A stretch of DNA of 64,000 nt from Fimicolochytrium jonesii (Eukaryota). Shown here one piece after another: positions 4,501-64,000 of this stretch. Position 1 is the stretch's first letter. Every line of letters starts with the position of its first letter. Location of the stretch: NCBI RefSeq assembly GCF_025526975.1, contig NW_026515691.1, forward strand, positions 434,001 through 498,000. Direction: 5' to 3'. The notes under the pieces were generated by a model. That model ran no database searches, was not told where the DNA came from, and saw only the letters and a program-made list of their open reading frames with translations. Both the position numbers and the translations under genes were made by a program.

Positions 4501-5414
4501 TTCACACTCAGCGTGTTCTTCAGTAGCTGACGACACAGAGCTTTTGCAGAGCTCTTATGTAAGCGATGATGGCACTCGTTCGAAACGACCGAGCTTCATA
4601 GTGGATAAACACGTCAGCATCTTCAACATCTCGAAATTGCGGACGTAGCAATCGTCACAGAACATCTATACAACCCTTCTAGACGATTCAGATAGCCTTC
4701 AGGACACCCAGGACAGCATCCACCGTAAATCCTGAAGCCCGTAGTGCGCTATAGCCGAAAAGCGCCCACGTATAGGTTATTTACATACTAGAACGACCGA
4801 TACGTCGGCTAAGTCACCCTTTTGCGCTGGATGGTTAAACAAACCTTTTTGACTCACTGTTTGCCATACATACCTTACTCTTGCGGTCTATCAACTCTGG
4901 AGAGTATACGTTCAACGGTCGATACGTTATCGACATAAACGCGCTTTTACTAGTAGCCAATTAGTAGCACGCGCATGGACCGGGAATCTATAACTGTTAT
5001 TCGATCCTCTTCAAACTCGGAAATCTCGTAGAGTACGCCGAGCTTGTAGACTTGTGAAAGTTTCGGACGGATTCGACCTACGGCTATGGAGATATCGAAT
5101 TTGGAAGTTTTCGTTGCCAAATAACGTAACCCCATACCAAAGCTATCGCAGTTTTGGTCGAAACGACATCCGTTGAGGTTCTTCTCGATCCAGAGAACTA
5201 CCGTACAATTACGCTGCAAGATTCAAGAGGTTTCGATCACGGCAAGCGGAGATATACGCGTCACCGCGTTCGGATAATAGCTGTTTAAATGAAAACAGGC
5301 TATTAGGAAACGTACCTCAATTTTCGAGATATTGGACGGCACAACCTCGACCGTGCATAAGTGGACACCCACAGCACGGTGTAGACGGGACGGACACTCA
5401 AGTTGCCGGGGCAC

Positions 5415-6806
5415 ATGCATACAACGATGACCAGCAAGGCAGCAAAAGTCTCAGTGCACAGAAGATGCACACTGCTTGACTTACTTCACGAGCATGAGCC
5501 GTGGGGAACGACAGACAGTGACCCCAAGCGTCCGTTAGAGATTCTGGCCAGCTGCTTAGCGACATTCATATCATGGATGCGAGACCGACAGCCTATAGCT
5601 GTGTGCATACAGACCGACACCGCAGTAGGCTGGAAACTCACAGTGTGCGCACAAACGACAGACAACGTAGAGCACCCCGTATCACTTGATGACGCAATAC
5701 AGAGGCTGGCACAGCTTGAGTACCCACAGGCTGGACATCTTGCAGCTACAAGCAAAGAGGCCGCCGAGCTCACACGCCGATTGCTAGACCTTATGAGATC
5801 TGCCGGAACACTCTTTAGCGTGCACATACCCGAGCTGAAGCAAAACAAATGCAGGACGCATTTCAGATGCACAAGGAGATCGCTAGACCCCAAAGACTGG
5901 ATGGCTAATGAGGACAAGCGCAATGCCTCTGTCGAGTGGCTACGATGCCGACCAGAGGAGTGTGAGCGCTGCCCGGTCCTTGAGAGACTCAAGACAATGC
6001 CTGCCGTGGTCAACACCAACGACGCTCTTGAAGCTGCACATGAGGCGCGATGCGTAGGCATCGGGGGAAAGACCACCACCACTATTGGTAGGGACTTGGA
6101 GATGATATGCACGCTACGATGGGCGGTAGTCTCATTTCTCAAGCTAATGGACGTACCACCGTGTGCCAGGTTCATGGCAGGCATCGGGTCGATTGCACGG
6201 TCAACATACGTGGGCGAACATGAACGCGTGGAGCTGGGGACAATAGGCACGATGCTCGACGCCCACGCAGAGCACCTGGACGAAAACGCCATCATCACGC
6301 TGCTGACGTACGAACGTCGCCGGCTTGACGAGATGCCAGCGATGCACACCGGATGCCCAGCTCAAGATGTAGACAACAACACCCCCGTAACGTTAGCGGT
6401 ACACCAACACCCTGAGATCGTAGCATGGTCCGCGCTCTGTGGATTCGACGCTCGGGGAGAACGACAACCAACAATAGTAGTGTCACAGTCCCCATGTGTA
6501 ATGTGTGAGATATGGTGCGACGCCGAAGGCGTGCGACTTGTGAACGCGCCTAGTAGCGATCTTGGGCACCCCGTAAATCACACGTGGATGTTCCCATCGC
6601 ACCCCCACGCCAACCTCAGTCGCACCATGAGACGCATCACACAGGAGGTAGAACACAGCATACGCCAGCATGCGTATTTTGATACAAAAACCGCGTACTC
6701 GAGATACACAGATGCAGACAATAATTTTGAAGACGAGCTCACAGGCAAGCACAATACAATGGCTGGTTTCAACAGCATCATACAGAGAACACGGCCGGAT
6801 CCATAG
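5415..6806 (+). CDS. OTT_1508-like nucleic acid/nucleotide deaminase (intronless)
   Basis: About 463-aa ORF with HPE (HxE), IVVSQSPCVMC (PCxxC) and a downstream H..W.FP motif; the N-terminal LAxxL...AV...LxV motif is typical of fungal OTT_1508-clade proteins. Confidence 0.75.
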   Translation: MHTTMTSKAAKVSVHRRCTLLDLLHEHEPWGTTDSDPKRPLEILASCLATFISWMRDRQPIAVCIQTDTAVGWKLTVCAQTTDNVEHPVSLDDAIQRLAQLEYPQAGHLAATSKEAAELTRRLLDLMRSAGTLFSVHIPELKQNKCRTHFRCTRRSLDPKDWMANEDKRNASVEWLRCRPEECERCPVLERLKTMPAVVNTNDALEAAHEARCVGIGGKTTTTIGRDLEMICTLRWAVVSFLKLMDVPPCARFMAGIGSIARSTYVGEHERVELGTIGTMLDAHAEHLDENAIITLLTYERRRLDEMPAMHTGCPAQDVDNNTPVTLAVHQHPEIVAWSALCGFDARGERQPTIVVSQSPCVMCEIWCDAEGVRLVNAPSSDLGHPVNHTWMFPSHPHANLSRTMRRITQEVEHSIRQHAYFDTKTAYSRYTDADNNFEDELTGKHNTMAGFNSIIQRTRPDP

Positions 6807-10400: not shown

Positions 10401-11918
10401 AGATCGATTTCGGCACTTGTCCGACAGATCTCGATCGAGCCCGAAGTCAAAGCGAAATACTGGGTAAGATGCCCCCTTCCTCGCCATGCTCTGACTCACA
10501 TGGCTGTTCAGGAATGACGGCATTTACCCATTCGCTCTCTCCGATTTCTCCAGTACCAACCAGCGGAAGACAAATCCGTCCCAGCACGCATGCCAGGAGT
10601 CATTCCTTCTGGCCCCCCGCCCATGAACATGAATGTCCGACCGCCACCTGAAAAGCGGCCGAGACATGTTTGATTGAAGAGCTGCGAAATTTTGGTACAA
10701 CTTCGTATGTGGTCAATGTTTCGGTTTGCTAAGGAGTTCAGCTGCTATTGGGCAACGCCAAAGCTGGATGTTGACTCGTCGGCATGCGCCGCCCCGATCA
10801 CTTCCGAAGGTTGCTGGCACCTTTACTACTGTCGAGAGTCGCTAACCTCCGATACTGAGTAATTTTGGCGATTGGCATCGCTCCGCACGATTATCAGAGG
10901 AGCCACGGACGCCTTTTCATCCAAGCCTAGATGGGGAATAATAAGGCGAGCGTCTTGGATACTTCCAACACCGCGATCCCCACCGGTCCGGGTTCTTTGG
11001 AGGCGGTGTGCTCACCCACGATAGGGCACGTCACGGCGGCTTTCTGTACGGATCCTGGGTTCGCTTGCCCGCCGAGAGTACTTTCGCTCAAGCACCTACC
11101 AAATGGGGATTCTTTGAGCGTATCGAATGATGGTGGTAGAGCATATCATGCATCGCAATGGTATCAGGGTGTAGGAGTCGGCATGTCCATCCAAATGCAC
11201 ACGATTCTAGAGAACATAAGTGGAAAGTTGCGGTGTACCACAATATGTAATGAGGTTAATAAACGAAGCCGTCGATCATTAGCGCGCCAATGTTCTTCCG
11301 ATATGAACGAAAAACACATGCCATCGACTTGAATGCACAAGGCCATCGCTTGCCCCCGTCTTCCATCTAAAGAGGGATCGCGAAACGTACTGTCCTATCC
11401 CCCAACCCTCCTGTGATCCCTTTCATCCCTTCCCACCAGTCGCAGGTTCGAAATACTACTTGAAAGGTCAGAGTGCCCTACGTCCGAGTCCTTGATGGGT
11501 GCCTTTCCACCGCCCCGCAAAGGAACAGAATCTGACGGTGTCCAGCAAGGATTTAGGAGGTCCGCATGGACGCTCAAAATCCCTGCGTTTACATGTCATC
11601 AGGGTAATAGAGCAGTTTGACAGCGCGTAACCTGTCATTTTAAGTTTCTGACCGTGTGCTTTATCATCAGGGAGTCTGCGTCTGGCTTTCAGGTGTGCAG
11701 CTCGGTAGGACAGGCGCCTATTTCTCTTTTGGATACCGATAGAACTTGAATCATAAGCCTCCAATTTCCATTTGAATTGTACACCAGTGCGCTGCCACCC
11801 TGCTCGTCGATAAGGCAAGTCAAACTCCCCCCATGAGTGCATCATTCCCGAGAAAAGCCGCTCAGGTTCCGTTGTCTCCGAATGTTCTTTGTGAACCATA
11901 TAGACACACAAGGCACCA

Positions 11919-12907
11919 TGAGCTCAACTGGTCCGTCTGGAAGCACCGGCCCCGGCGCACAAAGATTTATCTTCGGTGCGCCATCCCGGTCTGGACCCTT
12001 CAACTTTCAGGCCACGACGCCAACCGCAGCACCTACTTTGACATCAACATTGAGCACTGTCGACAACCTGGTCTCCTTCAATAATCACGCATGCTCCGAC
12101 ACCACCCTCGTCATGAATAGCGGGAAGCTAATGTACGCTGACAGCGATGTCCTGTGCCGTGCCTCGCCGTTTTTCCGAGCACACGATTCTTTCAGCAACA
12201 ATGCAGGAACCGAACGCTCGATCGAGGTGAAACACATCTGCGACGACGACTTGGTCTTTGCCCGAGTGCTTCTATGGATGTACACACAACGGTCAAACGA
12301 CCTCGGATTAGGCTCTCATAACCTAATGTCGTACATGTCCGTCGGCTTCGTGCTGGAACTTGACAAGTCGTTTTACGGTGCTATGCGGGTGGCCATGCAA
12401 GCGATCTCGCCCCTAGATCTCTCTCTCGATGGAATCTATATGTTCATGAAGCGCGCATTAACCTCCGAGGAGCAGGTTATCCATGCGCTGACCGAGCTTT
12501 TGCGAGATGTCCCATGCCAGAATGTGCACTTCTACAACACAGGCACTGTGTGCAACTCATGCTCGCGCGCGAACGGTGGAAGCGGAACAACGGGACCCTT
12601 TGGCCCCCACCAACAAGGACAACCTGTCTGCAGCTCGTGCCTCAAGTGTGCCAAGCATTGCAACTCGGCATACGTATACATATTACTGCACCTGCCCGCA
12701 ATATGGATCGGAACGGTGATGACACACGAGTACACATACGACATCTTGGATGTCCGGAGGCGCGTGAAAGCGGCTGTTGTTGCTCACAGTGACAAAATTC
12801 GGATCCTTTTGGACTCGACAAACGTGGTTTCTGCTGTCCTCAACACGATGAGCATCCCTACCCTCAGAGAGTGTCTGTATGTGATCTATGGGAATCCTCC
12901 TCCATAA
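11919..12907 (+). CDS. BTB/POZ-domain protein with a Cys/His-rich insert (intronless)
   Basis: SDTTLV...VLCRASPFF...FARVLLWMYT is a BTB signature; a later CxxxH...CxxC...CxxCxxCxxHC cluster. Confidence 0.75.
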
Positions 12908-14315: not shown

Positions 14316-14609
14316 GATGGCCAGTTTGTCCTGGAGCTGCTGGATGCCCCACGTCGATGGGGGAGGACTATGCAAGCAGCGAACAGCTATGTACTGTACG
14401 GTTGTTCCAAGGACTGCGGATAAGGGCTGGCGATTGGAGGCGCAGAATAATTGTTGAGGGGTTGAGGACTGTTAAGGGTTTGGTGTGTAAGGGTGGAATG
14501 GGCGGTTGGACGGGTTCTGATGTTTGTGGATGAGATGGGGAGAAAGTGTGAAGTGGATAGCGAGGTAGTTAGGGAGTGGGTTGAGGACACGCGAGAGGTT
14601 CGGAAGATA

Positions 14610-14922
14610 CAGTGCTGTTCATAAAGCAAGACCGCATTTGACAGTGCCGTCAGAGAAGTGCTCGACCGCGTCGCCGGCCGGACGCTCCGGACAACCCGAG
14701 CGAGATCTCGAGAGCAGCTAGAGGCTATTGCACAGCAGACATTTCAGGATATTGAGCCAGATGTGCTAGAAAAACTTGTGTCGAGCATGCCCCGGCGTAT
14801 AGCGGCAGTCATAGCAGCTAGAGGAGGATTCACTAGATACTAGGCGTAGATCTATATGGAGAGGCGCGTCCAGGGGGCCGGTGAATTAAATTGACAGCGG
14901 TCTTGCTTTATGAACAGCACTG
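14610..14922 (+). mobile_element. Internally deleted Tc1/mariner element (MITE-like, 313 bp)
   Basis: Perfect 26-bp TIRs CAGTGCTGTTCATAAAGCAAGACCGC (14610-14635 and 14897-14922), TA on both sides (14608-9, 14923-4); retains the Tc1 transposase C-terminus LVSSMPRRIAAVIAARGGFTRY* (to 14843). Confidence 0.93.
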
Positions 14923-15529
14923 TATGTACACCGTTCGAGTCGGTGCCGGACGTTAAGCTCACCCAAGAGCAGACGGTACTGAACGTTTGAAAATGCGGCA
15001 AGCATTGGTGGACGGGCACAGAGTGCACTGCGGACGCGATATTGAGCGGCAGATTGAGCGGAGGAGGAAGGATGGGGACAGTGGGTTTGGTGACAGGAGG
15101 TGGTTGCGGCCACAGCTCGGGTGTCCCCGCAACCACCTCTGGTCTCTTATCACTTGCTGTTCCGGTATCCCACCGTCGGGCTTTTCCATACACGATTCAG
15201 CGGCCTGTCTTCGATTGAAAATAGAAGTCTCCTCTTCCAATCGTTACGTTGATTTTATTGCGCAAGGGCATTGATGATGAGTCTACTACTGGAAACTCTT
15301 CCTTGTGAACCAATCCACGTCCTGCAAATGTTTTACTCACTCAGATCTGAGGTTATGTTAACCCCTGTTCTCACAGTGAAGAAGCTGTAGGAATTGCAGT
15401 ACATGAAAAGTACATATGAATGTAATGACAATATGTAAGAAAAAACAAACTGTACAAGCATGCGATATTAAATACGTCGGGTGTCGGACTCGCCGAAGGG
15501 TTTTGAATCATGCATAACACGCCCAATCC

Positions 15530-57128: not shown

Positions 57129-59628
57129 ATGGCATCAGCCAGCATATCCCACACCCTCCCCGCTCTCTTCCGGCCATGTCTATCCCGACATCGAGCCTTT
57201 GTCTCCAAATTCGAGCCCCACCGCTCCCTCAAGAAGCGAGCATTCCACCGCACCTTCATCAGCCGCCAGCAACCGAAGAAAGATGAACCACCAATGCTTA
57301 TCACAACGCCTATATTCTACGCCAATGCAGGTTTGTGCATTTCACTCCTATGTATGCATGTGTATGATCTTTGTGTTGAAATACCCGTCTTTTTGCTTTG
57401 CAGAACCACATATCGGACACCTGTATTCAACAGTCCTCGCCGACGTGCTAAAACGGTTCTACGAGTTGAAAGGGCGGGAGGTTGTTTTTTCGACGGGGAC
57501 GGATGAGCATGGGCAGAAGGTGAGGCTGGTTACCGTCGCCGGCGGGATGTTGCGCGATGAAGGAAATGTTGACGATGTGGTTGTGAAGGATAGATTCAGG
57601 AAGCTGCCCAGAGGAAAGGGATAGATACGTTGAAGTTCTGCGATGAGGTTTCTCAAAAGTTCAAGGTAGGTGGGACTACCCTATGGATTAGGACGCAAAA
57701 CGGTTTCCTGATGGGGAAGGGGAAATCCATTCGCAGACATTATTCGAAGCCGCCAACATTTCCTACACCGACTACATCCGGACGACTGAACCGAGGCAGA
57801 AACGCGCTGTGCAGGCTCTTTGGGTACGACATTTCGGATATGAGCTACGTCAATGGTTCAAGGTTGGCAATCGGGCTAATGAGGATGGAATGTAGACGGA
57901 TTTGCGAGACCGGGGATATATTTACAAGGGCACGCATGAAGGGTGGTATTCGGTCTCGGATGAGACGTTCTATCCCGCGACGCAGGTTGAGGAGGTTAGG
58001 GCCGCTGATGGGACTACGAAGATGGTATGTACACGCATAGTCGTTTTGAATTTCCCCCGGATCTCTTTGGTAAACCTGACGATTGGTCAACACAGGTCTC
58101 GAAAGAAACCGGCCAACCCGTAACCTGGACCACCGAAGAAAACTACAAATTCCGTCTCAGCGCCTTCCAATCCCAACTCCAATCCTGGCTCACACAAAAC
58201 CCCACGGGTACCCACCCTCCTTCTCCTTTTTTCTCCCCCTTTCCTCCCACTAAAACCCTCCCCCTCCTTTCCACAGCAATCCACCCCCCCCAAAAACACC
58301 ACCTGATCCTCTCAACCCTCACCACCCACTCCCACGAACAACTCGCAGACCTCTCCGTCTCCCGTCTTCGCTCACGCATGCAGTGGGGGATCCCCGTGCC
58401 GGGGGATGAGGAACATGTGGTGTATGTGTGGCTGGATGCGTTGGCGAATTATTTGACCGTGCTGGGGTATCCGTGGACGGAGGGTGAGACCGGGATGAGG
58501 GCAAGGATGCAGAGGGCGTGGCCGGCGGCGTGGCATGTTGTTGGGCAGGATATCCTCAAGTACGTCCTACTCCCAAAAAATCTCTCAATCCCCTCATCCG
58601 CGCCAATCCATACTGAATACCCGAATGACCATCTACGCAGATTCCACGCAATCTACTGGCCCGCCTTCCTCCTCGCCGTCAACCTCCCCCCACCCATCCG
58701 GATCCTCGCCCACGCCCACTGGCTGCGCCACCACGTCAAAATGTCCAAATCGCGCGGAAACGTAGTCGACCCCATGGCCGCCATCGCAACCTACGGCGTC
58801 GATTCCGTGCGGTGGTTTTTGATGCGGGATAGTGCATTGGTTTATGATTCGGGTGCGTTTTATTCGTGCGGTTTCACTGGGGGAGTGGATGGTTTTCAGA
58901 TGCGTGTGCTGGATTTTTTGATACCTTTTTTTTTGGGGGGGTAGATTTTTCGGATGAGATGATACATCAACGGTATACGAAAGACCTGGAACGGCAGTTT
59001 GGAAACCTGGTCATGCGGTGTTGTGCGCCCAAAGTCAATAAACGGATGCTCGCGCCCTCGAGCCCGGGAACACTCACCGACGCCGATCGGGAGTTGCATG
59101 ATAGTTTGGCTGCCCTCCCAGGTAAGACCACAAAGAACCCACCGGCCCCTCCCCCAACACCCGCTGAAACGTCATCCCCACACGCGGTTCGAAACCTTTT
59201 CTTTTTTAGGCATTGTAGAAACATGTTACGAGAACGCCGAATTTGCCGCCGCCCTCGAACACATCACACACACCATCTCCCTCGCCAACAGACACTGGGA
59301 CGCCACGAAACCCTGGCTCCTCGCGCGCACCTCACCCTCCTCCTCCGCCGCGGCCGATATCCTCGCCCAAGACCGCCTCCGCACGATACTGTACTACGCT
59401 ATCGAAACCGTGCGTGTATGTGGGATACTCCTGCAGCCCGTGATGCCCGGGAAGATGGGGGTGTTGTTGGATGGGCTTGCGGTGGGCGAGGGGGAGAGGG
59501 GGTGGGGGAACGCGCGGGTTGGGGGGAGGTGGGTGGGTGGTGATGGGAGGGAAGAAGTGGTTGTGAGGGAGGGGTGGGAGGGGACGGTTGTGCCGGTGCA
59601 GAGACCGTTGTTTCCTAGGTTGATGTAG
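57129..59628 (+). CDS. MSM1: Mitochondrial methionyl-tRNA synthetase
   Basis: Presequence, ITTPIFY, PHIGH, GTDEHGQK, WGIPVP, YVWLDAL and KMSKSRGN; multi-exon. Confidence 0.93.
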
Positions 59629-59688
59629 TGGGGTGGGGATAGAGTTATGTAGAAAGATAGATTTGTCTTTTTATGTAGATACAGGATA

Positions 59689-59783
59689 CAAGTTGCCATC
59701 ATCGGCGATGCCTCCGGCAGAGGTACAATGATGTGGATGGCAGATAACCACCACGGAAAATGGGAACGGGTGAAAACTCTAGA
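59689..59783 (-). ncRNA. Candidate Fanzor omegaRNA scaffold / transposon right end
   Basis: Lies immediately 3' of the Fanzor stop; TGCCATC/GATGGCA stem enclosing CATC/GATG and CCTC/GAGG hairpins; bounded by TA at 59687-8. Confidence 0.45.
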
Positions 59784-62059
59784 CTACCGGGAGAATGCGT
59801 CTGGTCTGTGGCCATTGCCAAGCACCACCGAACGCACAATCGAGAGGAAATTCTTGGTGCTTAGGACGTCCCGATTGTGCACTTTCATCCGTAGTCGTAG
59901 TGGCCGTCTTCCAGGAATCTCAAATGGCGCCCAGTCTTGGTTGATACATTCAGGGTTGGGGCAACCCACCAATCCATGGACGAATTCCATTCTTCCCTTT
60001 CTAGCTTGCCATGGCCGAGATGACAGCCGCTGTCGGATGTTTTTCTTCACACGGCCATGGCAGTCGGGGCACACGGACGATGTTCGATACTCATCTAGCA
60101 AGTAGCATGGAATGCTGTTTCTTGCAAAGAGTGTGCGGAATCTAAATTCCATGATGAGTTAGCATATTATAGTACATAAAGAACAATGATGGTCACTCAC
60201 CCCTTGGTTTTTGATGACTCCTGAAAGCGCATCGTTTTCCCAGCATCGCTCCAATCTCACCCAAGATGACCGAAAAATGCTTTTCATACCGGCGTCGCAT
60301 GTTCTTGATGAGCTTGCTCTCAGACTTTTGTCACAGTGAGAACGCCTTGAACCTGCGAGCGACATGAATCTCATCCTGGTAAAACTCATCCAGGGCGGGA
60401 TCTTGAATATGGATGTCAGCCCATGTTGACCCAAATTTGAAGACGATACATGATACATCATACCTGCATGTTCGTAATCCACGATGAACGCTGAGAACGC
60501 CTCGATGTTCATGCTCTTGTGCGACGGAATCTGTGATTCCATCTCAGCAACGCCGGCATTGATCTTCCGCTCTGTCATGTCTCTCTGAACGTACCGCGAC
60601 TTTGTCCCGACCGCCCGTTGATTGGATGTATATCTGATGAGGGGCGGTGTTTTGTGAGAATGTGACAACGGATGGTGGGGACAGTGAAGGGGGGGGGGGG
60701 GGGGGATGGTGGAGACGGGGACGAGGACAGGGTTGGCCTCGACACCGTCATGCAGGTCATCAACATGGGCCACGTGACGAGCGATATGACACACGACGGC
60801 GACAAGCAAACCAACCGCGGCCGCTCCCTCATTGGCGGCGTTCCCATCGACAGCTCCGTGCTCGTCCAACTCTATCGACAAACTCCTCGCCCAGATCCGC
60901 GACGGTGGCAACCGCTACACCATGATTAGCGCCACCGAGGCCCTCATTGCCAAAATGGCTGCGGAAGCCGCCAACGCCGTCTGGACCGACTTCGTTGCCC
61001 GTGTCCGCAAACAGGGGAACCACCCCTTCCAAGTCAACATCCGCAAACACCTCCGCACCATCTTCCGCAAAGTCGAGGGTTGGGGGGGGGGGGGTTGGGG
61101 GATGGTGGGGACAGCAGGGCAGTAGTACTTAGCAGTAGTCGGCAGAGGAAGCAGGTGACTGAGCGAACTCTATGTTTTGTGAGATGTAGTACTGTGAAGT
61201 ATGTATTGAAGTCTCTTAGAGAAGTCTGAAGTGTAGAAAAGAGGACGCGAGGTCCGAAAGGGAAGAAAAGAGTAAGCTCCTGTATGCGTAAGCGTGGCGT
61301 AAGCGGGAGGTGAGTCACAAGGGGAACCTAGCTACGGGAACCCTAACTAAGGACTCGGGAGTATGAAACCTCCAACAGTAGTAATCAACTGAAACTTACC
61401 GAAATGGCCGCTCCTTCTTGTTGTCTCGACAGAATAGGAGGTAACGCTTGCCCGGATCAATGGAGACGATGTTTGGAGCCTCCCTTAAGTCATCAATGTG
61501 ATGCTCAAAATACAGCTGCTTGACTTCTTCCCGCATTTGGGCCTTGCTGCGCTTCCGGGCCCGACACCCATACTTGAGCCCTGGCGTCTTGAAGTGGATG
61601 GTAACGGAATACCCGTCGGTGCTAATTGACCCATCAAACTTGAGACCAAGCTTCTTTCGATGTTTGAAGACCTTGTCCTACAATCCGTCAATCAGCGACG
61701 TAATCTGTTTGAATCAAGCACAGAAGGGTACAGACTTAACTTACATTCACATTGAGAATCTGCCCCCACAGCTCCTGCTTGCGTTCACCAGTGAGTTTCC
61801 CCACGCAACGTCGGCCGACATCCAGGATATGTGTGCCTAGGATCAGCGTGTCGATCCAAACAGATGACTGGATTTGAGATTTGCGCAGCGGGATAGCGGA
61901 AAACAGCCGCATTCCACGGCGCTCATAGAGGCGTGAGAGCTCACAGCAGGCGCCTGTGGAGAGGCAGGTGTGGACCATGATTAGACAAAAGAAGAAGCTG
62001 AGGGGGGGGGGGGGGGAGCGGAAATACACTAACTCACCTAAATAGGGCATTGTGTCCAC
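59784..62059 (-). pseudogene. Fanzor1 (TnpB-like RNA-guided endonuclease), intron-containing, disrupted and 5'-truncated by an LTR insertion
   Basis: Spliced FSAIPLRKS...IDT...FDGSISTDGYSV...IVSIDPGKR (RuvC-I D, 61456-8)...RYTSNQR...GDWS...LLDEYRTSSVCPDC (RuvC-II E, 60090-2)...VHGLVGCPNPEC...NRD (RuvC-III D, 59868-70)...RPDAFSR*; premature TGA at 60331-3 and a +2 frameshift near 60257. Confidence 0.92.
60670..61114 (+). mobile_element. Insertion inside Fanzor intron, flanked by 15-bp direct repeats
   Basis: GGATGGTGGGGACAG at 60670-60684 and 61100-61114; poly-G tracts just inside both ends; coding-like interior. Confidence 0.55.
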
Positions 62060-62333
62060 TGTCGGGGAATCTCATCTTCACTTGTATTTCATATTATACC
62101 TCTTTACTTCTACTTGATCCGAGACCCGGGCTGGCCACCCGAGCTCTCGGTGATACATTATATAAGGCGCCCAGCCTCACTGAAGCCACGCAAGCCCCAC
62201 TGGCAGCCCATATATAAAGCTGTCAGTCGAGCGGCCGCTGCGAAGAGCTTCTTACTTTTTTCTTCACTACAATACACTGCTCTCAGCCCTCTCAGAAGGG
62301 CCCAATCTCGTCTACGTTTCCTCTGACGTTACA
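62060..62333 (+). repeat. 5' LTR of a Ty3/gypsy retrotransposon
   Basis: Starts TG exactly where Fanzor coding similarity stops, ends CA, contains TATATAAAG (about 62211), and is followed directly by TGGTAGC. Confidence 0.75.
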
Positions 62334-62346
62334 TGGTAGCAACACC
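62334..62346 (+). promoter_or_regulatory. Primer binding site (probably tRNA-iMet)
   Basis: TGGTAGC directly after the LTR CA, complementary to a tRNA 3' end ...GCUACCA. Confidence 0.6.
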
Positions 62347-62427
62347 TACCACTAGCATCACCAAGACATTCCTCGTCAACGTTGCCCCTCTACCGGACGT
62401 CCCCCTTACACTCGTTCACAAGCAAGA

Positions 62428-63765
62428 ATGGACGCACAGACTCAAGCTCTTGTTGCGGCTGTCGCAGCTGCTTTCGCTAGTCAGCAGCGTGCTGTTACGC
62501 AGGACGACCAACGAGCCAAACGTTTCAAACTTCTTATGGACGCTCGCAAGAACAAGCTCGTCGAATACCATGGCGCCAAAGCTGCCAAACAGATACAAGA
62601 GTTCGTTACGTCTCACCACAACTTTCTCGAGTCTCTGAATGTCCCGGCTGTACCAGCTGGAACAGACGGCACTGGAGCTGCCAACGCCATAGCCTTTACT
62701 ATGGCAGAGTACGCCCCTACGCTTACTACCTACCTCAAGGGTACTGCTCTCGAGTGGTGCAATACGACTTACGCCGGTGGACCTCCCGCAAATTGGGCAG
62801 CTTTTGGAACGGCTCTTGTCGCTCACTTCTATCCTCGCAACTTGCGTAATACTATTGAGCTCAAGCTCTCCGGTCTCAAGCTTGGTGACTCTCTCGAAAA
62901 ATACATCAAGGAGTTTCAGGACACCAATAATGAGCTCGAAGCTGCTCATCGTCTTGATAACACTCAAGGCACCATTCCCCTTATCGATCAGATTCGATAC
63001 TTCAAGGCTGGTTTTCTCAAGAATACGGTAATCGGTCATTATCTCGCTGAAGCCGTTACAAACTTCGAAGTCTCGGGCACTACCAATATCAACACCCCTA
63101 TCACTCTCGATCAAGCTATCACTGCAGCTCGTCGTGCTCATGTGGCTCATGGGTTCACTGACGGCAACCAAGCCAATACGCCTCGTCCGATTGCCTCGGC
63201 ATCAAGTGCTCGTGGCGGCCGTGGAGCCAGCCGCGGTCGGGGTAGTCGTGGCGGTGGTCGTGGCGGATGATTCGCCCCTTACACCAATCCTCGAATTACG
63301 GAATTTGAGCAAGACTTAGATGATATGACCTTTGGGCTCAATGCTTTTGGTACGTCATACTATCCCCCTGGAGTGAGTCGTCTCACTACAGGTCAAGTTT
63401 CCTACCAACGTCAGCAGCCCTTTTGTCGACGTGGACAATGGCAAACTACTCACATCCCTCGTCAACGTCCAACAACTCCTTGTCCTCTTTGTAACAAAAT
63501 GGGACATTGGAGGGTTGAATGCTGGTCAAATCCCGAAAATCGACAGCAAGGACTTCAAACCCAGAACCAATGCGGTGGTTTTTGACAGCGCGGTCGTGGC
63601 GCTCAAACTCCGCAGCGCAGTCGCCAACCTAATCAACAACAAGGTTCAGCGAATCAGGTTGATGCTGGGTCACGCATTACGGAAATTCTCGATGACGCCG
63701 TCAACTCTGCGAATACTACAAGTACTACTACAAATCAATCTTCGAGTTTTTTCCAAGGTCGATAG
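62428..63765 (+). pseudogene. gag: Gag (retrotransposon gag domain plus CCHC zinc knuckle) with two premature in-frame TGA codons
   Basis: LKGTALEW...W..F...L..HF...Y..EF; CPLCNKMGHWRVEC in the same frame after TGA 63268-70; second TGA 63583-5; final TAG 63763-5. Confidence 0.85.
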
Positions 63766-64000
63766 AGCCCCTCGGTAGCTCTGCTCGGCCTACAACATAC
63801 GATCCTACAGATAAACCTGCCTTCGAACCACTGTCTGCTGGACTCTGGGTCTCTCATTGTCGCATCGGAAACAAGTTTGCTTGTGTTCTCTTTGATAGCG
63901 GAGCAACTGGGTTATTCCTTGACAAGACATTCGTCAAAAAGCACAAGTTTCCCAAGAAACGTATCGAACCAAAGCAGATATGGCTGGCCGACAAAGAATC
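63747..64000 (+). CDS. pol: Pol N-terminus (aspartic protease), -1 frame relative to gag, partial
   Basis: Open frame from the T TTT TTC heptamer to the window end, containing VLFDSGATGLFLD. Confidence 0.85.

What the first reader, a model, noticed from the sequence alone, without database searches (positions are those of the whole stretch)
59689..62059. Five-intron Fanzor1 RNA-guided nuclease locus, hidden from the ORF track
Seen in sequence: joining exons across GT-AG introns at 62037-61954, 61744-61678, 61399-60634, 60463-60402 and 60200-60142 gives one protein. It has the WED-like FDGSISTDG motif, RuvC-I IDPG, RYTSNQR, GDWS, RuvC-II DEYRTS, a CPDC...CPNPEC zinc site and RuvC-III NRD. Established knowledge: these motifs define Fanzor1, the eukaryotic TnpB-derived omegaRNA-guided DNA endonucleases; from memory, motif order and wording closely track Spizellomyces punctatus Fz1. 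Inference: this is an intron-rich member of a distinct family. All three catalytic residues are intact and only two point lesions are visible, so active sister copies may exist, possibly with their own TAM, and this copy may be repairable.
Basis: partly seen in the sequence, partly recalled or inferred. Interest (0 to 1): 0.9.

Follow-up and report, generated by a model that had tools for sequence, protein, structure and literature searches.

The report
Broken, five-intron Fanzor in chytrid fungus
This is a broken copy of a fungal jumping-gene family whose gene is split by five introns and encodes a close relative of Fanzor1, a known RNA-guided DNA-cutting enzyme; the family seems undescribed and likely gained these introns in its own lineage, but it is a new member of a known kind and this copy cannot make a working enzyme.

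Summary
Observation confirmed. Spliced alignment of SpuFz1 (a single-ORF gene) to the window recovers all five introns at the stated coordinates. The read-through matches SpuFz1 residues 240-632 at 47%, with D383/E541/D606 kept. It belongs to a family of 55 unnamed Fimicolochytrium jonesii gene models.

The copy is dead, not lightly damaged: one stop, one frameshift, 17 rare substitutions, and its 5' half cut off by a Ty3/gypsy insertion.

Added here: (1) a likely 75-nt omegaRNA scaffold at 59761-59687; (2) none of the five intron positions occurs in 5 relatives mapped, which have other introns, so gain in this lineage is likely; (3) the TAM-anchoring arginine column holds glycine in 12 of 14 family models, so even full-length sisters may be impaired; (4) intron 3 holds a captured piece of a host GTPase-like gene.

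Multi-exon Fanzor1 genes are in print since 2013. The scan earlier noted spliced ghost elements in another chytrid, not this family. New member of a known kind; interest 0.36.

The parts
62038..62071 (-). Remnant of the Fanzor exon cut by the LTR insertion (reads ..TVDTMPYLG; sisters ..AVDAMPYLG); left limit approximate
61954..62037 (-). Intron 1, 84 nt, phase 1, at SpuFz1 residue 244
   Evidence: 13 of 13 covering sister models cross it without a gap
61745..61953 (-). Exon, SpuFz1 residues 244-310
61678..61744 (-). Intron 2, 67 nt, phase 0, at SpuFz1 residue 311
   Evidence: 20 of 25 covering models gapless, the other 5 break exactly at this donor
61400..61677 (-). Exon with FDGSISTDG and RuvC-I (catalytic D at 61458-61456, = SpuFz1 D383)
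   Evidence: PDB 8gkh E 7.9e-16
60634..61399 (-). Intron 3, 766 nt, phase 2, at SpuFz1 residue 401; enlarged by inserted DNA
   Evidence: 29 of 33 covering models gapless; P0023, P0054 and P0011 read into its 3' part
60735..61077 (+). Decayed fragment of a conserved chytrid host gene (weak GBP-like GTPase hit; P0092 residues 187-373, three internal deletions, one frameshift), antisense inside intron 3, with an 8-nt direct repeat at 60729 and 61076
   Evidence: 85% identity over 68 aa to P0092
60464..60633 (-). Exon with YTSNQR
60402..60463 (-). Intron 4, 62 nt, phase 1, at SpuFz1 residue 457
   Evidence: 40 of 42 covering models gapless; P0043 and P0001 read into homologous intron sequence
60201..60401 (-). 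Exon with in-frame stop (60333-60331) and frameshift (near 60257) just before DWS
60142..60200 (-). Intron 5, 59 nt, phase 2, at SpuFz1 residue 524
   Evidence: 44 of 44 covering models gapless; P0042 and P0051 read into homologous intron sequence
59781..60141 (-). Last exon: RuvC-II E (60092-60090, = E541), zinc site CPDC...CPNPEC, RuvC-III D (59870-59868, = D606), stop codon
   Evidence: PDB 8gkh E 6e-28
59687..59761 (-). Predicted omegaRNA scaffold / right end, 75 nt: TTTTCC, first stem-loop, second stem-loop, ends in TA (likely target-site duplication)
   Evidence: Same length and layout as the published 75-nt SpuFz1 scaffold, compared by eye; folds; whole-scaffold z -0.6, not significant
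59672..59686 (-). Predicted 15-nt guide: host flank, about 45-60 nt past the stop of a methionyl-tRNA-synthetase-like gene on the + strand (gene name recalled from its motifs, not searched)
   Evidence: inference from the SpuFz1 layout; ORF end 59628
62083..62333 (+). Likely 5' LTR of a Ty3/gypsy retrotransposon inserted into the Fanzor gene; left limit approximate; followed by a TGG primer-binding-like site at 62334
62356..64000 (+). Ty3/gypsy gag, zinc knuckle and aspartyl protease, running out of the window
   Evidence: Pfam Retrotrans_gag E 5.8e-7, RVP_2 E 5.3e-5

Best explanation
This is the 3' half of a dead copy of a multi-copy Fanzor1 gene family of the SpuFz1 clade, in the chytrid Fimicolochytrium jonesii or a near relative, split by five introns that were likely gained in this lineage. 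Shown: the exon structure by homology, the catalytic triad, the SpuFz1 fold of a full-length sister, the family, the lesions and the Ty3/gypsy insertion. Inferred mechanism for a working member: the element, likely a non-autonomous DNA transposon inserting at TA like SPu-1, is transcribed and spliced to give a protein of about 700-760 residues with a basic N-terminal nuclear-signal-like motif. A roughly 90-nt omegaRNA would come from the 3' end (75-nt scaffold ending in TA plus about 15 nt of host flank). The complex would cut the empty allele next to a TA-ending TAM, so that repair from the filled allele restores the element. This copy then decayed: retrotransposon insertion, stop, frameshift, many substitutions and a captured host-gene piece in intron 3.
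For: Introns recovered to the base from SpuFz1 alone. X-read-through aligns without gaps to sister P0040 (374 of 408 identical) and to SpuFz1 240-632 at 47%. Sister P0040 hits PDB 8gkh at E 5.5e-148. The AlphaFold model of sister P0039 (pLDDT 76.7) matches SpuFz1 with target-normalised TM 0.90, E 5e-51, then PpFz1 and GtFz1. Nine family rows form one clade (SH-aLRT 100), joined to Gaertneriomyces P0056 (100) (quick tree). Sister models read into sequence homologous to introns 1, 3, 4 and 5, so the introns predate the spread of the family. Five mapped relatives lack all five positions. SPu-1 is a single ORF with TA duplications (PMC3627910; PMC10432273). The restorative-homing model is from a review (PMC13565253).
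Against: No RNA evidence for splicing or for the omegaRNA. The scaffold's folding energy is no better than shuffles (z -0.6). A four-sequence alignment of 3' ends gave no consensus structure, and a three-sequence alignment of the first stem gave 5 pairs, 3 of them broken in one sequence. No left end or terminal inverted repeat can be seen in the window, and none was found for relatives L002, L003, L005, L038. The R96 column is Gly in 12 of 14 family models, which argues against cutting by most members. Intron status of the closest outside homolog (P0056) is unknown. Sister 'support' partly rests on automatic gene models.
Confidence: 0.85

Rival explanations
1. The family spread mainly as a passenger with a blunted nuclease. 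An early change of the TAM-anchoring arginine to glycine left the catalytic triad intact but stopped or weakened DNA cutting, and a transposase elsewhere moved the element.
For: R96 column: Gly in 12 of 14 family models; Arg in 16 and Lys in 2 of 18 outside homologs that cover it. R85A in GtFz1 abolished cleavage (PMC11423790; that this is the same arginine as SpuFz1 R96 is my inference). P0037, which keeps Arg, branches first among the family rows (support 91).
Against: The loop is also 5 residues shorter in this family, so the contact may be remodelled, not lost. Catalytic residues are strongly kept (E541 in 43 of 43, D383 in 31 of 32 matching models). No DNA was available for a selection test.
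Confidence: 0.35
2. One reading: active sister copies exist with their own TAM, and the family is a ready source of a new editing enzyme.
For: P0039 (761 aa) and P0040 (693 aa) keep all eight motifs tested and are colinear with SpuFz1. The N133 column is Ala in 17 of 18 models while Q129, Q130, R291 and Y345 are kept in P0039 and P0040, which fits a changed TAM.
Against: Copies are 88-97% identical in protein (median 92%, 45 pairs), most models are partial, both full-length models have Gly at R96, and P0039 has Lys at a nearly invariant Thr after RuvC-II.
Confidence: 0.35
3. The five gaps are not functional introns but chance GT-AG-bounded insertions in a pseudogene.
For: No RNA reads were available; intron 3 plainly took up foreign DNA.
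Against: All five excise with no indel against SpuFz1. Four have branch-point-like motifs 18-31 nt from the 3' end (distances corrected by hand for an offset in my script). Sister copies share them.
Confidence: 0.03
4. A domesticated host gene: the introns reflect a long-settled cellular function.
For: Intron density of 4.1 per kb of coding sequence; well-formed splice signals.
Against: 55 dispersed, mostly partial models on many contigs; this copy is broken; no one-to-one orthologs across chytrids appeared in the homolog search.
Confidence: 0.04

Closest known systems
SpuFz1 / SPu-1 element of Spizellomyces punctatus (PDB 8GKH, 9CEU; PMC10432273, PMC3627910)
   Same: 44% identity over 641 aligned residues for full-length sister P0039; same fold; D383, E541, D606, Q129, Q130, R291, Y345 kept; multi-copy; Ty3/gypsy insertions into Fanzor copies also reported there; likely 75-nt scaffold ending in TA.
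   Different: SPu-1 is one ORF; this family has at least five introns. About 130 extra low-confidence, proline-rich N-terminal residues. R96 is mostly Gly, N133 Ala, N385 Gly. Copies look more decayed. Scaffold sequence differs.
Unnamed Gaertneriomyces sp. JEL0708 protein HDU85_005947 (P0056)
   Same: Closest outside homolog, 52% identity; sister to the family in the tree.
   Different: Keeps Arg at the R96 column and Asn at 385; its introns could not be read.
Multi-exon Fanzor1 of Chlamydomonas reinhardtii (CRe-1, -2, -3; CrFNuc)
   Same: Intron-containing transposon-borne Fanzor1: five exons in CRe-1, ten in CRe-2 and CRe-3, with EST support; intron densities up to about 9.6 per kb across Fanzors.
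   Different: Helitron2-associated and algal; not compared by sequence here.
PpFz1 of Parasitella parasitica (PDB 9CF0)
   Same: Fungal Fanzor1 with DPG at RuvC-I like this family; hit at E 4.7e-36.
   Different: About 20% identity; has an insertion in RuvC that this family lacks; ATN TAM.

Membership tests
Fanzor1 | Eukaryotic TnpB-like protein with RuvC triad D-E-D | tested here: met
   Window D148, E307, D381 align to SpuFz1 D383, E541, D606
Fanzor1 | RuvC-II Glu six residues before the zinc-finger motif (rearranged site; PMC13565253) | tested here: met
   DEYRTSSVCPDC in the last exon
Fanzor1 | Large REC plus WED lobe, 600-700 aa, Fanzor1 fold | tested here: met
   Met for full-length sisters. 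The window copy itself lacks the part before SpuFz1 residue about 237.
Fanzor1 | Groups with SpuFz1-clade Fanzor1 proteins | tested here: met
   (quick tree, midpoint root; no Fanzor2 or TnpB rows included); best structural hits are SpuFz1, PpFz1, GtFz1, far ahead of Cas12f and TnpB
Fanzor1 | omegaRNA encoded at the 3' end, with a 7-bp first stem-loop and a flank-derived guide | tested here: inconclusive
   Position, 75-nt length, TTTTCC start, hairpin and TA end match; no significance for the whole fold, no covariation, no RNA data
Fanzor1 | Carried by a transposon (terminal inverted repeats, target-site duplication, multiple copies) | tested here: inconclusive
   Multi-copy met (55 models); left end outside the window; no sister DNA available
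Fanzor1 | Conserved REC-loop arginine that anchors the TAM duplex | tested here: inconclusive
   Region absent from the window copy; Gly in 12 and Arg in 2 of 14 family models
Fanzor1 | omegaRNA-guided, TAM-dependent DNA cleavage | not testable with these tools
   needs a bench assay

The most novel reading that the evidence does not exclude
A transposon-borne Fanzor of the SpuFz1 clade gained five or more spliceosomal introns while still multiplying, and most of its copies swapped the TAM-anchoring arginine for glycine yet kept the full catalytic triad. It would then be either an enzyme that grips DNA differently, with a new or relaxed TA-ending TAM, or a guide-binding, poorly cutting Fanzor spreading as a passenger, with its guide RNA released from the tail of a spliced mRNA. 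Together with introns at other positions in relatives, the intronless SpuFz1 gene would be the derived state.
Probability: 0.2. Interest if true: 0.62.

Novelty: new member of a known kind. Interest (0 to 1): 0.36.

Why it matters
It adds an apparently undescribed multi-copy family at 44% identity to SpuFz1, the best-studied eukaryotic RNA-guided nuclease. Natural changes at two TAM-contact positions and a candidate guide scaffold make it a cheap ortholog to test for a different TAM. The intron map gives a small, testable case of intron gain and loss inside a mobile nuclease gene. It does not show a new mechanism, and this copy is dead.

Tried and rejected
No whole genome is held for the window, so sister DNA, left ends, ghost copies and the missing 5' half could not be searched. 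Sequencing runs: none was listed; this is no evidence on expression. Rfam: no match in 58500-64000. Pfam on hand has no good Fanzor1 model: only weak Cas12f1-like_TNB hits, E 0.018-0.068; the precomputed label PF26935 on homologs could not be resolved to a name. ESM Atlas on the intron-3 peptide: only scores of 0.80 or less, uninformative. Folding of six 3'-end windows: z from -0.71 to +1.21. The first hairpin alone gives z -3.66, but I chose that 33-nt window after seeing the hairpin, so I do not count it as a test. The start motif I made after reading the SpuFz1 scaffold occurs 3 times in the window against 0.25 expected from a first-order model, so the motif alone is weak and that null is too lenient. 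Alignments of 3' ends with metagenome relatives gave no usable consensus. No terminal inverted repeats were found around 4 related loci. No second copy of the 3' end, intron 3 or the LTR in the window. The careful tree did not finish; the quick tree is used. The D606 count was spoiled by a loose pattern and is not used.

Full report
Observation. The five introns are at the stated coordinates, each GT...AG. Joined, the exons read in one frame from MPYLG to a TGA at 60333-60331; after a frameshift near 60257 the frame continues DWS...DEYRTS...CPDC...CPNPEC...NRD to a stop at 59783-59781. Two single exons hit SpuFz1 in the PDB (E 6e-28 and 7.9e-16). As an independent test I aligned SpuFz1 (P0058) and the Gaertneriomyces homolog (P0056) to the raw window with a home-made spliced aligner; each placed all five introns to the base and the frameshift at 60257. 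The read-through, with X at the two breaks, covers SpuFz1 residues 240-632 at 47% identity. D383, E541 and D606 are kept.

Family. The last exon found 13 proteins among 49 candidates, all labelled Fimicolochytrium jonesii; 12 of them match at 91-97% identity and one at 71%. Cluster look-up and a full-length search brought the set to 55 distinct gene models; some may be pieces of one copy. All are named 'uncharacterized protein'. The host is therefore F. jonesii or a near relative (inference). Models covering a junction cross it without a gap in 13 of 13, 20 of 25, 29 of 33, 40 of 42 and 44 of 44 cases. The exceptions are informative: they break at the same donor or read into sequence homologous to window introns 1, 3, 4 and 5, so the introns were present before the family spread. 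Ten long models are 88-97% identical over the C-terminal part. Of 17 models over 500 aa, 3 keep all eight motifs tested, and one of these (P0017) lacks 91 residues of REC and is fused to other sequence. An AlphaFold model of P0039 matches SpuFz1, PpFz1 and GtFz1 first. In a quick tree of 43 rows, 9 family rows form a clade (SH-aLRT 100) joined to P0056 (100). P0056 is 52% and SpuFz1 44% identical to P0039.

State of this copy. It starts at residue 350 of 761 because a Ty3/gypsy element (LTR about 62083-62333, gag, protease) sits in the exon upstream. Besides the stop and frameshift it has 17 substitutions seen in at most a tenth of covering sisters; 7 are at residues where sisters and SpuFz1 agree, such as D388, E410 and G497. 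A few of the 17 are shared with P0039 or P0040 and may be subfamily variants. Intron 3 holds an antisense fragment of a conserved host gene. The copy is a decayed pseudogene.

Intron history. In SpuFz1 numbering the window's introns lie at 244, 311, 401, 457 and 524. I mapped introns in 5 of the 72 metagenome loci, the ones closest to the query; L003 was left out as nearly the same as L002. L001, L002, L004 and L006 share an intron at 164, L002 and L006 another at 585, L004 one at 534, and L005 has none (introns up to 200 nt allowed). None has any of the five window positions, and the window lacks 534 and 585. SPu-1 is a single ORF. Gain in this lineage is the simplest reading, with P0056 unread. 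Breakpoints in sister models hint at more junctions in the missing half: three models at P0039 residue 178, one at 272, which equals SpuFz1 164. These are hints only, as gene predictors invent introns around lesions.

Guide RNA. In SpuFz1 the omegaRNA is a 75-nt scaffold between stop codon and right end plus 14-15 nt of flank, with a 7-bp first stem-loop, and the 3' target duplication lies inside the scaffold. Twenty bases after the window's stop, 59761-59687 is 75 nt long, starts with the same TTTTCC as the published scaffold (by eye), forms a first hairpin of 7-8 pairs and a second stem-loop, and ends in TA. Against this: the whole-scaffold z-score is -0.6, alignments with relatives showed no covariation, Rfam has no match and no RNA run was listed. 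I put the assignment at about 70%.

DNA recognition. SpuFz1 reads its CATA TAM with R96, Q129, Q130, N133, R291 and Y345. P0039 and P0040 keep Q129, Q130, R291 and Y345. N133 is Ala in 17 of 18 models. The R96 column is Gly in 12 of 14 family models, but Arg in 16 and Lys in 2 of 18 outside homologs covering it. A REC-loop arginine was essential in GtFz1; that it equals R96 is my inference. A changed TAM is plausible, but so is a blunted enzyme.

Mechanism. Shown: exon structure by homology, fold, triad, family, lesions. Inferred: transcription and splicing, an omegaRNA from the 3' end, cutting of the empty allele beside a TA-ending TAM and restoration by gene conversion, as proposed for OMEGA systems, with a transposase supplied in trans as discussed for Spu-1.

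Comparison with print. Multi-exon Fanzor1 genes were described in 2013 (five and ten exons in Chlamydomonas), and intron densities up to about 9.6 per kb in 2023; this copy has 4.1 per kb. I found no description of this family. Searches were 'Fimicolochytrium' (17 papers, 15 listed, none on Fanzor by title), 'Fanzor' with 'jonesii' (1 paper, unrelated mentions), 'Fanzor chytrid transposon', and supplement searches of three papers, all without a hit. These blanks are weak: the supplements of PMC10530073 do not even contain 'Spizellomyces', so its 3655 nucleases may include this family under accession numbers; one file of PMC10432273 was unreadable; the supplements of the bioRxiv paper 10.1101/2023.08.09.552727 were not seen; Repbase and patents were not searched. 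What I saw of each paper: PMC10432273 passages, section 7 and supplement hits; PMC11423790 passages, section 5 and a supplement search; PMC10530073 passages and a supplement search; PMC3627910, PMC13565253, PMC12247965 and 10.1101/2023.08.09.552727 passages only. The scan's earlier notes had nothing on this genome or sequence; two notes on another genome describe spliced ghost elements carrying the guide RNA, unchecked here, and they prompted the 'guide from a spliced transcript' part of the novel case.

Verdict. Real and correctly read: a dead copy of an apparently unreported, intron-rich Fanzor1 family of the SpuFz1 clade. New member of a known kind; interest 0.36.

Noticed in passing
window 60735-61077 (+), inside intron 3: Captured, internally deleted fragment of a conserved chytrid gene of about 490 aa (weak GBP-type GTPase hit, E 0.002). 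An 8-nt direct repeat flanks it (that 8-mer occurs 8 times in the window). Two sister models that read into intron 3 (P0023, P0054) stop matching the window at the fragment's edge, so it may be specific to this copy or subfamily. Template-switch or break-repair capture is a guess.
   Followed up: partly
window 61130-61399 (5' part of intron 3): About 270 nt of pyrimidine-rich sequence with short repeats and no match elsewhere in the window; possibly a piece of another mobile element.
   Followed up: no
L001, L002, L004, L006: All four metagenome relatives share a phase-1 intron at SpuFz1 residue 164; L002 and L006 share another at 585; L004 has one at 534; L005 has none. They lie on both sides of the split between this family and SpuFz1, so intronless SPu-1 may have lost an old intron.
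   Followed up: partly
L002 4944-5020, L005 3190-3250: Short hairpins directly after the stop codon with a start and loop like the first stem-loop of the SpuFz1 omegaRNA: candidate omegaRNAs of further chytrid-like Fanzors.
   Followed up: partly
window 14607-14925: 319-nt element with perfect 29-bp terminal inverted repeats, MITE-like; its ends differ from the Fanzor right end.
   Followed up: no
window 62083-64000 (+): Ty3/gypsy retrotransposon with an in-frame stop between gag and the zinc-knuckle ORF (63268-63270).
   Followed up: partly
proteins P0082, P0087, P0017: Gene models fusing Fanzor exons to other sequence; P0082 has a tyrosine-recombinase-like N-terminal part (Phage_integrase E 5.6e-4), likely a neighbouring or nested element merged by the annotation.
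   Followed up: no
family N-termini (for example P0039 residues 20-30): A basic RRKRRK motif, nuclear-signal-like, in 12 models, ahead of a proline-rich region modelled with low confidence.
   Followed up: no
window 5385-6806 (+) and 11837-12907 (+): Long single-exon ORFs (473 and 356 aa stop to stop) in an otherwise intron-rich window; not identified.
   Followed up: no
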